Shown here: in pieces, positions 27,001-30,000 of the stretch
Layout: each line of letters opens with the position of its first letter
How positions within the stretch are numbered: the stretch's first letter is position 1
IMG/VR virus record: IMGVR_UViG_3300047160_005424
Coordinates: 1,209-65,208 of that record
DNA length: 64,000 bases
Origin: a virus
Direction: 5' to 3' (one strand)
Made by a program: the position numbers

Positions 27001-30000
27001 CGTGCGGGGAGCCAGCGATGGACACCGCGCGAGGGATGAGCGATCTCTGCGTCGGCTGCTCCGAGTTCATGAAGCACAGCCGCAACTTGCTTCGCGACTA
27101 CAGCTGGGCGCTGCGACGCTTTCGCTGCGACCCGTCTGAAGCGAACCACGAAAGGGTTATCGCCGCCCTCGAAGCTTGGGAGCGATCGCGATGAAGTCGC
27201 TGTCAGAACGCGAGTCACAAATCGCTGCTCTCGTAGCTCAAGGAATGATGAACAAGGAGATAGCCAGAGCCTTGGGGATGCTCGACACGACTGTGAAGGT
27301 CCACGTCCGCAACTTGTTTCTCAAAGTAGGCGTGAGAAATCGTGTCGAGCTGGCTATGATGATCAAGTGCAAAGACTGCCCGATGAAGGAGAGGATCAGT
27401 GGCTGCTGACTTCAACATCAAGTGGATCGACCGGTATCGCTCGGCGAAGAGCCCTGCGAACCCGGAGTACCCGAATGGCGTCGACGTCGACATGTCGACT
27501 CAAATGCTGCCGAGCTGCCAGTCGCCGCTTCCGTACCCGGCTCCGCGCTGCGGGATGTACATCGTCACCTGCAAGACTTGCGGAACCAGCGCGGTGATAA
27601 CGACATCAGGGCGGCTAGACGACCCGCGGTCCGTCAAGATCTCGTGCCGCCCGGCGAAGGAGAAGATCCAGTGAGTAATGAACCAGTCGACTTTTCTGTG
27701 ATCAGCAGGTTGATCACGTGCATCAGCCTGCTGGCGCTCACGACTCTCTTGCTGGCGGCTGCTATCTTCCTACTGCTGACGTCGGCAGCCAGGTCTGAGA
27801 CCCAGCGAGACTTCCCCACAGTCAACTTCTATGACGCACGGGGAAACAAGACGGGGAGCGCCACCACCTACTCAGGCGGCGTGACCAAGCTCTATGACGA
27901 CAGAGGCCGACTCGTAGGGACGGTCGTTAAACAACAACATCCAAAAGAAAGGTAAAGGCGACATGACAAGTCTTAAGATAGAGCGTCAGAAAGACTCCGA
28001 AGTAAGAGTTCTTCCTGACGGTCGCGTCTTGGTGACAGGGTTCAACGTCCCATCTAGAGTCGTAGACCGCGAAGGAAACGAGATCGAGCCTTCGCCGTCG
28101 GAGCTCACGGCTCTGGAGCGCATCTGCGAGATGTCATTCCCAGGTGATGAGTCATGATCGAGGACAGCGCCATATTGGCTCACTACGTTCGCGTCGTCAA
28201 AGAGCTTCGCAAGATATCGATCCCTGGCTTCTCGTGTCTGCGCTGCGGCTCTCAGTGGACTGCCGAAAAAGGCGACAGAGAGCACCACGCGAAGGGATGT
28301 GTTCTCGAGGGAACAGAGGAGAAGAGGCGATGAACAACGAAGAAGCAATTCTCATTCGCATCGAAGATCGCCCCGCCGAGATGGCGGGGAAGTACCTCAA
28401 GACCTTCGACCACGAGGCCTACGACGGGAGGGGATACGGCACGTTCACCGACGACCCGCTCCAGGCCAAGCAGTTTCCCGGGATCACGGCCGCCCTCGAG
28501 TTCTGGAACCGGCAGTCCAAGGTGCGCCCTCTGCGGCAGGACGGCCGGCCGAACAAGCCCCTCACGGCCTCGACGGTGAGCTTTCTGCGGTTCCAGGATG
28601 CGACAGCCAGCCCAGGAGAAGCTGTACCAGTGGTCATCTCTGGGCCTTGACGAGGCCGACCCTACCCTGATAGGGCCCTACCTGGATAGGGCAAGAAAAG
28701 ATTTCTTTCCCTATTTACACGGAAAGCGTAAAGGCCTATATACAGATCGCGCCCCGCAGAGGGCCCAGACAACGGAGAATGAAGATGATGAACCCGGAAA
28801 CCAAAGCTGCCCGCAAGCGTGATCGCCAGCTCAACAAGCTGCACCCGATCGCACGTCAGGTTCAAGTCCTCGAGAACGATCGCTTGCGCGTCGGCGTCGA
28901 TGGTGCAGTGATCGAAGGCGACGTAGACGCGTTCAATCGCGTGATCGAGCGGATGGGCTTCCGCCCCGTGCGGATCACGCGGAACATTCTCAATCAGAAC
29001 TCGCCGCTCTTCTGCATCGACATCAACACCCCGGCGTACTGCGATCCGGGTTGCGAGTCATATCACCAGATGTAGTGAAACGGCGCGGAGGCGCCGTAGA
29101 GCAGGGACGGCCTCCTGCTCCTGATGATCAGGCCACAAAAAATTCGGAGAAATAAGATGACCAACGCGCACACCCACGAAGAGCTCGATACCCGCGGTCA
29201 GCTGAGAGACCCGGAGCTCGTCAAGAAGTACGTCCTCGCCGGCCACGCCACGATCACGCTGGTCTCGATGAAGACGAGAAACCGCTTCACCTACGAGATC
29301 AACGAGACGCTCCCCGACGATGCTGGCAAGCTCGGAGCGGTGAGCCACTTCGTCTCGCTCCTCGTCAACCCGGACAACGAGCACGGCTTCAAGTACTTCG
29401 GCCACGTGTTTCGCCGCGACGGCAACTTCGTCGTCGGCAAAAAGTCGAAGATATCCGCCGACGCTCCCGGCGTCAAGGCGTTCGCCTGGTTTTTCGAGAA
29501 AGTCGTCGTCATGCGTCAAGACCCGGCGTCCCTCGGCCTCGAGGTTTGGCACGAGGGTCGCTGCGCCAAGTGCGGTCGCAAGCTGACGGTCCCTGAGTCT
29601 GTAGAGCGCGGTATCGGCCCGGAGTGCTGGTCGCGAATGAACGGAGACTGAGCCCATGGAGAGCAAGACGAGTTACGCAGTGGTGATCGGGTTGATGCTC
29701 TCGGCCGGTTTCTTCGCAGCCTACGGGATGCGAAGACACCACGCTGAAGCGCAGCCATCCCAGGTAGTCGACCGCACTCTCAAAGGTGACGTCGTCGTTC
29801 CAGACCCCCACACGTTCGACGGGCGACTGGCGATCACCCCTGGGATGTTCCAGCCGCAAGACTGCAATCCTGCCGTGGTCTGCCCGTGGGGCGGGCGGCA
29901 GCGCCTGCCGTGGTGGATGCAATGATGAGTGAAATGACCAAAGAGGAGATAAAAAAGCTCATCGACAAGGACGCTCTCGAGGCGATCCGGGAGATGGAGA

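What the first reader, a model, noticed from the sequence alone, without database searches (positions are those of the whole stretch)
29071..29134. Type II hammerhead ribozyme between two early genes, with minimal stem II and a competing off-fold
All core nucleotides occur in the correct order (GAAAC...GUA...CUGAUGA) with perfect stem III (GGAG loop) and stem I, and loop I (GGCCU) can form a pseudoknot with the 3' tail (AGGCC). Predicted cleavage is after A29098, which would separate the upstream ORF from the DUF6011 mRNA about 60 nt before its start. Stem II is atypical (U-U then G-C) and overlaps the upstream UAG. CCUGA 29120-24/UCAGG 29128-32 can sequester the core, so cleavage may be slow or coupled to translation termination. 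Hammerheads are a known class; this instance and its possible switching are inference.
Basis: partly seen in the sequence, partly recalled or inferred. Interest (0 to 1): 0.85.

Follow-up and report, generated by a model that had tools for sequence, protein, structure and literature searches.

The report
Type II hammerhead ribozyme between phage genes
A real self-cutting hammerhead RNA of an already described phage-borne kind sits between two genes of this phage and probably cuts their shared transcript into two messages; it is a good but ordinary new example.

Summary
The motif is in the sequence exactly as described, at 29073-29137 (+). It is a type II hammerhead ribozyme. All core nucleotides are present. 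Stem III has 7 bp and stem I has 7-8 bp. A 4-5 bp pseudoknot joins loop I to the 3' tail. Rfam RF02276 gives 36.0 bits, 1 bit under its cut-off, and it is the best RNA hit in the window (E 0.0013). A model built from 40 relatives in other viral contigs, without this window, scores it 73 bits (E 1e-16).

The "atypical" stem II (U10.1-U11.1, then C-G) is a natural variant already reported by Perreault et al. 2011. I found 41 well-formed copies of it in about 25 viral contigs, 13 of them in one phage, with covarying stems and pseudoknot.

The layout (stop codon, ribozyme, spacer, Shine-Dalgarno, start) is the rule for this class. The off-fold hairpin exists but is weak, and 10 of 41 relatives lack it, so a switch is not supported.

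Cleavage after A29098 is inferred, not shown; no RNA data were listed. The scan has met type II hammerhead arrays before on other DNA (e1-3541703).

Verdict: a new member of a known kind, of low to moderate interest.

The parts
28779..29075 (+). Upstream gene (98 aa, no Pfam family). Its UAG stop (29073-75) overlaps the 5' strand of stem II.
   Evidence: ORF list. No Pfam hit. Homologues at 89% aa identity in L002 and 57% in L004.
29075..29076 (+). Stem II, 5' strand: G11.2 and U11.1.
   Evidence: Sequence. G29075 pairs with C29129; U29076 faces U29128. The G-C pair is invariant in 40 relatives.
29077..29080 (+). Core GAAA (G12 A13 A14 A15.1).
29080..29097 (+). Stem-loop III: 7 bp (A15.1-U16.1 to C29086-G29091), loop GGAG.
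   Evidence: One compensatory pair against L145.
29098..29099 (+). Predicted cleavage site: between A17 (29098) and G1.1 (29099).
   Evidence: Position follows from the hammerhead numbering (GUA triplet). Inferred, not measured.
29099..29120 (+). Stem-loop I, 22 nt: 7 bp GAGCAGG/CCUGCUC with loop GACGGCCU.
   Evidence: It has the same 22-nt length as nearly all subclass members.
29109..29113 (+). Pseudoknot, loop I half (GGCCU).
   Evidence: Complementary to 29130-34. It is in the same register as in 40 relatives, where this helix covaries.
29121..29127 (+). Core CUGAUGA (C3 to A9).
29128..29129 (+). Stem II, 3' strand: U10.1 and C10.2.
   Evidence: The U10.1-U11.1 variant is documented in PMC3088659.
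29130..29134 (+). Linker A plus the pseudoknot 3' half (AGGCC).
29120..29132 (+). Alternative hairpin CCUGA-UGA-UCAGG (the off-fold). Weak and probably incidental.
   Evidence: It appears in the nested MFE fold. It adds about -2.2 kcal/mol, against -5.9 to -7.5 for the pseudoknot duplex. It is absent in 10 of 41 relatives.
29135..29156 (+). A-rich spacer and Shine-Dalgarno GGAG (29146-49) of the next gene.
   Evidence: Spacer plus SD plus start follows 82% of 154 related hammerheads.
29157..29651 (+). Downstream gene, DUF6011 protein (164 aa).
   Evidence: Pfam PF19474, E 3.2e-15. 340 homologues.

Best explanation
Window 29073-29137 (+) encodes a type II hammerhead self-cleaving ribozyme. It belongs to the phage-borne subclass whose stem II is reduced to a U10.1-U11.1 mismatch plus one C10.2-G11.2 pair. 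The parallel arrangement of stems I and II is held by a 4-5 bp pseudoknot between loop I and the 3' tail.

The 98-aa ORF and the DUF6011 gene are probably transcribed together, since no promoter or terminator is predicted in the 81-nt gap. Once transcribed, the RNA folds and cuts itself after A29098. This would leave two products:
- an upstream message that ends 23 nt past its UAG in the stem III hairpin, with a 2',3'-cyclic phosphate;
- a DUF6011 message that starts with a 5'-OH at the stem I hairpin and carries a 58-nt leader with a free A-rich spacer and GGAG.

The likely effect is to uncouple the stability and translation of the two neighbouring genes, as proposed for this class.

Shown here: the motif, its family membership, the covariation and the context rule. 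Inferred: the cleavage itself, co-transcription and the physiological effect.
For: - The core is complete and both stems are intact.
- Rfam RF02276 gives 36.0 bits over the full model length, the best RNA hit of the window, with E 3.4e-7 on the whole virus record.
- Model R1, built from 40 subclass members of other viral contigs without the window, hits only this site in the window: 73.2 bits, E 1e-16. In 1.28 Mb of other phage loci it finds only one site, which Rfam also scores as a hammerhead at 50.1 bits.
- In the subclass alignment 96.4% of cells are paired, against 31-38% when partners are slid. The pseudoknot was not used to select the sequences; it is 95.5% paired and 4 of its 5 pairs show changes on both sides.
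- Against the nearest copy (L145:4165-4231) the alignment is 67 nt without gaps. The 6 differences at paired positions form 3 compensatory doubles, one each in stem III, stem I and the pseudoknot. No difference lies in the core.
- The layout is typical. Of 154 related hammerheads, 85% have the upstream stop within 30 nt (mostly 1-8 nt before G12), and 82% have an SD plus start within 90 nt, median 26 nt. Here the values are 1 nt and 29 nt.
- Literature. The type II consensus has this pseudoknot. Stem II may be 1-2 bp, and a one-pair example has kobs above 1.2 per min. Natural U10.1-U11.1 variants exist, and U-U is the best tolerated mismatch (PMC3088659). Type II hammerheads beside phage-like genes cleave in vivo in Desulfovibrio vulgaris (PMC8782182).
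- The same sequence is present in two independent ENA assemblies.
Against: - There are no RNA data for this phage; none was listed.
- The score lies 1 bit under Rfam's gathering cut-off.
- The G10.1-C11.1 pair, the most conserved pair after A15.1-U16.1, is replaced by U-U. This may lower the rate.
- A weak alternative hairpin competes with the pseudoknot.
- The element is not conserved in the closest relatives. L002, with 89% aa identity in the upstream gene, lacks it. Closer DUF6011 homologues lack it, and so do most DnaE relatives. It is therefore dispensable for this phage group.
- The biological role of bacterial and phage hammerheads is still undefined in the literature (PMC6765202).
Confidence: 0.82

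Rival explanations
1. It is a decayed or very slow hammerhead. The U-U at 10.1/11.1 and the one-pair stem II make it catalytically dead or negligible. What remains acts only as two intercistronic hairpins, for example as nuclease barriers.
For: The G10.1-C11.1 pair is missing. The score is below the Rfam cut-off. The element is dispensable in relatives.
Against: - The same U-U/C-G arrangement recurs in 41 well-formed copies from about 25 viral contigs, 13 of them in one phage. The core is intact and the stems and pseudoknot covary, which decay would not preserve.
- Against its nearest relative, all helix differences are compensatory and none lies in the core.
- Natural U10.1-U11.1 variants and a fast one-pair stem II ribozyme are reported (PMC3088659).
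Confidence: 0.1
2. It is a regulated ribozyme. The CCUGA/UCAGG hairpin and the UAG embedded in stem II gate folding, so that cleavage is slow or depends on ribosome release at the upstream stop codon.
For: The hairpin appears in the nested MFE fold with pair probabilities of 0.75-0.99. The stop codon overlaps the 5' strand of stem II here and in many relatives. A terminating ribosome would cover stem II, GAAA and stem III.
Against: - The hairpin adds only about -2.2 kcal/mol, while the pseudoknot duplex is worth -5.9 to -7.5.
- It is an automatic by-product of U10.1, C10.2, the linker A and a pseudoknot that starts with G.
- 10 of 41 subclass members (tails UCUAG, UCAC, UCAA) lose it while keeping a 4-6 bp pseudoknot.
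- The tail covaries with loop I, not with CUGA.
- Stops 1-8 nt before G12 occur in all stem II classes, which fits compact phage genomes.
Confidence: 0.1
3. It is a chance match: an intergenic run of GC-rich hairpins that happens to contain GAAA, GUA and CUGAUGA.
For: GC-rich phage DNA folds easily; the z-score of the 101-nt fold is only -2.3. Pattern scans do give false hits elsewhere: L162 lies in a MerR-like coding sequence, and 5 of 6 genome hits have no stems.
Against: A strict descriptor occurs in 0 of 300 shuffles. E is 3.4e-7 on the whole record and 1e-16 with the independent subclass model. The site is 76% identical over 67 gapless nt to a hammerhead of another phage, with compensatory changes.
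Confidence: 0.01

Closest known systems
Type II hammerhead ribozymes of bacteria, prophages and metagenomes (Rfam RF02276; Perreault et al. 2011, PMC3088659), including their U10.1-U11.1 and one-pair stem II variants
   Same: The same core. [quoted passage not shown] There is a pseudoknot of 4 bp or more between loop I and the tail just 3' of stem II. The position is between phage genes. The proposed role is processing of polycistronic phage RNA.
   Different: It scores 1 bit under the Rfam cut-off. It belongs to the minority form with U-U at 10.1/11.1, 3 of the 76 copies collected without regard to stem II. It is single in its genome rather than clustered.
Hammerhead array of viral contig IMGVR_UViG_3300005937_000002 (locus L145): 13 copies of the same U-U subclass between single small genes
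   Same: 76% identity over 67 nt without gaps. The same AGU-GAAA...CUGAUGA-UCAGG frame, the same 22-nt stem-loop I and the same pseudoknot register. One copy directly precedes a DUF6011 homologue of 44% aa identity.
   Different: The window has one copy, not an array. Three helix positions carry compensatory changes. The two phages are otherwise not shown to be related.
Type II hammerheads of Desulfovibrio vulgaris (PMC8782182)
   Same: The same ribozyme type, near phage-like genes. Self-cleavage was shown there in vivo and in vitro, with fragments of the sizes expected here.
   Different: Their sequences were not compared here. They lie in a bacterial chromosome, not a free phage genome.
Engineered ribozyme insulators such as RiboJ
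   Same: It works like them: a hammerhead placed before an SD removes the upstream RNA context and leaves a 5'-OH hairpin leader.
   Different: Those are synthetic, of another hammerhead type and derived from a plant satellite RNA. This is no family relation, only an analogy of use.

Membership tests
Hammerhead ribozyme, type II (RF02276) | Conserved core: C3 U4 G5 A6 N7 G8 A9, G12 A13 A14, the A15.1-U16.1 pair, and H17 (not G) at the cleavage site. | tested here: met
   CUGAUGA at 29121-27, GAAA at 29077-80, A29080-U29097, A29098.
Hammerhead ribozyme, type II (RF02276) | Three-way junction with stems I and III closed by loops and the strand ends in stem II (the type II permutation). | tested here: met
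   Stem III 7 bp with loop GGAG. Stem I 7-8 bp with an 8-nt loop. The order is 5'-II-GAAA-III-H-I-CUGAUGA-II-3'.
Hammerhead ribozyme, type II (RF02276) | A short stem II adjoining the core. The 10.1-11.1 pair is usually G-C; 1-2 bp stems and U10.1-U11.1 starts are accepted natural variants (PMC3088659, section 8). | tested here: met
   U29128 faces U29076, then C29129 pairs with G29075. This is the variant form, not the consensus G-C. The same form occurs in 41 well-formed copies elsewhere. The literature statement was read.
Hammerhead ribozyme, type II (RF02276) | A pseudoknot of 4 bp or more between loop I and the nucleotides immediately 3' of stem II. | tested here: met
   GGCC(U) 29109-13 with (A)GGCC 29130-34. 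It is in the same register as in 40 relatives, where the helix is 95.5% paired with compensatory changes. There is a G-C to A-U double change against L145.
Hammerhead ribozyme, type II (RF02276) | Score against the family's covariance model. | tested here: inconclusive
   36.0 bits against a gathering score of 37, with E 0.0013 per window and 3.4e-7 per record. An independent subclass model gives 73.2 bits, E 1e-16. The cut-off is an annotation threshold, not a biological feature.
Hammerhead ribozyme, type II (RF02276) | Site-specific self-cleavage that gives a 2',3'-cyclic phosphate and a 5'-OH. | not testable with these tools
   No RNA run was listed for this sequence.
Intercistronic phage hammerheads (stop codon, ribozyme, SD, start) | Same strand as the flanking genes, upstream stop within a few nt of stem II, and SD plus start within a few tens of nt of the tail. 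| tested here: met
   The stop ends 1 nt before G12, and the start lies 29 nt after the core. In 154 related copies 85% and 82% show this layout.
Chlorobi-1 RNA (RF01696) | A score at or above the family's gathering cut-off of 50 bits. | tested here: not met
   18.7 bits. It overlaps the stronger hammerhead hit and was rejected.

The most novel reading that the evidence does not exclude
The U10.1-U11.1 'AGU-GAAA...CUGAUGA-UC' hammerheads may be a distinct mobile phage lineage whose units mark the borders of gene cassettes. The evidence is suggestive only. In this phage, homology with its relative L002 ends exactly at the stop codon where the ribozyme begins. In another phage, 13 near-identical copies flank single genes. 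The repeated 40-60 nt units could serve as recombination joints for gene shuffling as well as RNA cut sites. The embedded stop codon could also make cutting depend on ribosome release. None of this was tested here.
Probability: 0.12. Interest if true: 0.55.

Novelty: new member of a known kind. Interest (0 to 1): 0.25.

Why it matters
By itself it adds one more phage hammerhead to thousands. Three things have some use.
1. Rfam's default threshold misses it by 1 bit. Automatic annotation may therefore under-call the U-U stem II subclass.
2. That subclass is common in viral contigs and covaries cleanly. This argues that the most conserved stem II pair is dispensable when the pseudoknot is present.
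3. A single ribozyme between two small genes in a complete 73.6 kb phage genome is a simple case for testing the still open question of what bacterial and phage hammerheads are for (PMC6765202).

Tried and rejected
- The Rfam scan at gathering thresholds found nothing. The hit appears only with E-value thresholds.
- The search for conservation through the flanking genes gave little. DUF6011 in viral contigs gave no locus. Four DUF6011 homologues at 54-56% identity (L003-L006) were fetched, and one look-up failed. L003 has an AT-rich gap without a hammerhead, and R1 finds nothing in L003-L006.
- The only close relative of the upstream gene, L002, has unrelated sequence after the stop codon and no RF02276 hit in its 46 kb record.
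- A scan of viral contigs for near-identical copies of stem I plus the core gave 0 hits.
- Of 50 DnaE-related virus records, only one (G004/L009) has type II hammerheads: two, of the canonical GGC/GCC form.
- The metagenome scan gave 4 stretches. Three hold real hammerheads, representing 2 distinct sequences: L160 is the L145 contig, and L159 and L161 carry one new sequence. The fourth (L162) is a chance match inside a MerR-like coding sequence.
- The genome scan gave 6 hits. Only one is well formed (L269, a Saccharibacteria MAG contig). The other five are chance matches without stems.
- No RNA run was listed, so 5' ends could not be mapped.
- A promoter or terminator reading of the hairpins was rejected: none is predicted in the 29076-29156 gap.
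- The Chlorobi-1 hit (18.7 against 50 bits) and the sX9 hit (11.1 against 44 bits) were rejected.
- The off-fold as a conserved switch was rejected on comparative grounds.
- Two further contigs with the identical gene (L275, L276) have an identical ribozyme. They give no variation to analyse.

Full report
**Observation.** The sequence contains the following, all on the + strand:
- the UAG stop of a 98-aa ORF (29073-75);
- U11.1 (29076) and GAAA (29077-80);
- a 7-bp stem III with loop GGAG (29080-97);
- A17 (29098);
- a 22-nt stem-loop I (29099-29120; 7 bp, or 8 with a G-U);
- CUGAUGA (29121-27);
- U10.1 and C10.2 (29128-29);
- the tail AGGCC (29130-34), complementary to GGCCU in loop I (29109-13).

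**Is it more than chance?** A loose hammerhead descriptor (GAAA, stem III of 4 bp or more, UH, stem I of 5 bp or more, CUGANGA) occurs 0.017 times per dinucleotide shuffle of the window. A strict one (both stems of 6 bp or more, pseudoknot of 4 bp or more) occurs in 0 of 300 shuffles. The real window has exactly one match, at this site.

**Rfam.** At gathering thresholds nothing is reported. With E-value thresholds the site matches Hammerhead_II (RF02276) over the full model at 36.0 bits, against a cut-off of 37. E is 4e-6 on 201 nt and 0.0013 on the whole window against all 4227 families, where it is the best hit. E is 3.4e-7 for this family on the whole record. The window is part of a complete 73,659-bp virus record with direct terminal repeats. 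The overlapping Chlorobi-1 hit (18.7 against 50 bits) is noise.

**Context.** The upstream ORF (28779-29075) has no Pfam family but has homologues at 89% and 57% aa identity in other contigs. The downstream gene (29157-29651, SD GGAG at 29146-49) is a DUF6011 protein. No sigma-70-like promoter or intrinsic terminator is predicted in the 81-nt gap. The next terminator-like site on this strand that follows a gene is near 30432. Co-transcription of the two genes is therefore likely, though inferred.

**Relatives.**
- The flanking genes led nowhere. The closest relative of the upstream gene (L002) diverges from the window exactly at the stop codon and has no hammerhead in its 46 kb record. DUF6011 homologues at 54-56% identity have none upstream.
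- Among 50 virus records related through the DnaE-like polymerase, one (G004/L009) carries two type II hammerheads, at 50.1 and 31.4 bits. Both lie downstream of the polymerase on the gene strand, each between a stop codon and an SD plus start. One shares six base pairs of stem III with the window's copy (ACGGCG/CGCCGU).
- A pattern on that stem III (GAAACGGCG...CGCCGT...CTGATGA) found 68 viral stretches with 75 distinct hammerheads besides the window's own, up to 6 per stretch.
- A pattern for the window's stem II form (AGTGAAAC...GTH...CTGATGATC) was filtered for formed stems. Together with the earlier loci it gave 41 distinct well-formed copies, the window's among them, in about 25 viral contigs. 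Thirteen of them lie in one 82-kb phage (L145), spaced 260-850 nt apart.
- The metagenome scan added one new sequence (L159 and L161) and one false positive inside a MerR-like gene.
- A strict pattern over about 186,000 prokaryote genomes gave one real copy and five chance matches.

**Membership.**
- I aligned 40 subclass members without the window (A1) and built a covariance model (R1). R1 hits the window only at 29073-29139, with 73.2 bits and E 1e-16.
- In 1.28 Mb of other phage loci R1 finds only one site, which Rfam also scores as a hammerhead at 50.1 bits.
- On A1, 96.4% of pair cells are standard pairs, against 31-38% when partners are slid, and 15 of 19 pairs show changes on both sides. 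Stems I and III were partly selected for by my filter. The pseudoknot was not, and it is 95.5% paired with 4 of 5 pairs compensatory.
- Against its nearest copy (L145:4165-4231) the window's ribozyme aligns over 67 nt without gaps, with 51 identical positions. The six differences at paired positions are three double changes, one each in stem III, stem I and the pseudoknot. The other ten differences lie in loops, the tail or the position before stem II. None lies in the core.
- Two independent ENA assemblies carry the identical sequence, so it is not an assembly artefact.

**The 'atypical' stem II.** Perreault et al. 2011 (PMC3088659) report the following:
- Type II hammerheads typically have a pseudoknot of 4 bp or more between loop I and the nucleotides just 3' of stem II.
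- Stem II is often only two pairs, and one pair in a tested ribozyme with kobs above 1.2 per min at 0.5 mM Mg2+.
- Natural stems II can start with a U10.1-U11.1 mismatch, which earlier mutagenesis had found to be the best tolerated mismatch.

The window's form is thus a known variant. Among the 76 copies collected without regard to stem II it makes up 3.

**The off-fold.** In a nested-structure model the CUGA/UCAG hairpin adds about -2.2 kcal/mol and is predicted with high probability. That model cannot see the pseudoknot, whose duplex is worth -5.9 to -7.5 kcal/mol. The hairpin follows automatically from U10.1, C10.2, the consensus linker A and a pseudoknot that begins with G. Ten of the 41 subclass members (tails UCUAG, UCAC, UCAA) lose it and keep a 4-6 bp pseudoknot. 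The tail covaries with loop I, not with the core. I read the hairpin as incidental, although a modest kinetic effect cannot be excluded.

**Architecture and mechanism.** In 154 well-formed type II hammerheads from the fetched viral loci:
- 85% have an upstream ORF of 40 codons or more whose stop lies within 30 nt, mostly 1-8 nt before G12;
- 82% have an SD plus start of an ORF of 40 codons or more within 90 nt, median 26 nt.

The window's values are 1 nt and 29 nt. Because the cut lies 23 nt 3' of the stop codon, the upstream message keeps its stop and ends in the stem III hairpin. The downstream message begins with the stem I hairpin and a 5'-OH, followed by an unstructured A-rich spacer and the SD. 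This fits the published proposal that such ribozymes process polycistronic phage RNA into messages with separate stabilities or translation (PMC3088659; PMC6765202). Type II hammerheads near phage-like genes do cleave in vivo in Desulfovibrio vulgaris (PMC8782182). For this copy, cleavage and its effect remain inferred; no RNA run was listed.

**Novelty and verdict.** This is a new member of a known kind. The features flagged as unusual are ordinary for the class, and the proposed switching has no comparative support. An earlier report of this scan (e1-3541703) described an array of seven type II hammerheads with the same layout, from stop codon to ribosome-binding site, in another phage. My data agree with it (L145 with 13 copies, L091 with 6). 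The residual novel idea is that these units mark cassette borders or are gated by termination. It rests only on the mosaic junction with L002 and on the arrays, and I give it about 0.12.

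Noticed in passing
L145:2410-8127 (- strand of the locus; IMGVR_UViG_3300005937_000002, 82 kb): Thirteen copies of the U10.1-U11.1 type II hammerhead, spaced 260-850 nt apart, one in front of nearly every small gene. One copy directly precedes a DUF6011 homologue of 44% aa identity. Stem I, the core and the tail are nearly identical between copies, while stem III varies.
   Followed up: partly
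L091:893-4789 (- strand; IMGVR_UViG_3300038412_000035): Six type II hammerheads of the canonical GGCC/GGCC stem II form within 4 kb of another phage. Each is followed by an SD and a start codon.
   Followed up: no
Loci L101, L103, L108, L111, L112, L114, L116, L118, L120, L125, L128, L133, L137, L151, L155: About a fifth to a quarter of the type II hammerheads collected by stem III carry an extra U between A9 and G10.1 (CUGAUGA-U-GGC paired with GCC-GAAA). This looks like a frequent insertion variant.
   Followed up: no
window 29073-29075, compared with L002:2735-2745: Homology between this phage and its relative L002 ends exactly at the stop codon where the hammerhead begins. L002 carries a different gene next and has the DUF6011-like and ORF89-like genes in another order. 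The ribozyme therefore sits at a mosaic junction.
   Followed up: partly
Rfam RF02276 alignment: As printed, the model's structure line pairs consensus positions 2 and 3 with 58 and 57. This leaves the C before GAAA (11.1) unpaired, so the stem II annotation looks shifted by one relative to the 10.1-11.1 pair. That may affect how stem II variants are scored.
   Followed up: no
L162:306-359 (- strand; Ga0068852_100332492): A 26-base hammerhead pattern matched by chance inside what reads as a MerR-type regulator coding sequence. Stem I does not form. This is a caution for pattern-only searches.
   Followed up: partly
The first lies about 1.2 kb downstream of the hammerhead, just after a stop codon and before a terminator-like site at 30432-30448. 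No Rfam family reaches E of 1 or below there.
   Followed up: no
window 60888-60956 (+): Weak match to the CPEB3 ribozyme model (21.1 bits against a cut-off of 35, E 0.51). Most likely noise.
   Followed up: no
L269:6785-6845 (+; contig of a Candidatus Saccharibacteria MAG): The only well-formed U-U subclass hammerhead found with a strict pattern in about 186,000 prokaryote genomes. It is followed by GGAG and ATG. It may be a phage or prophage contig in the bin.
   Followed up: no
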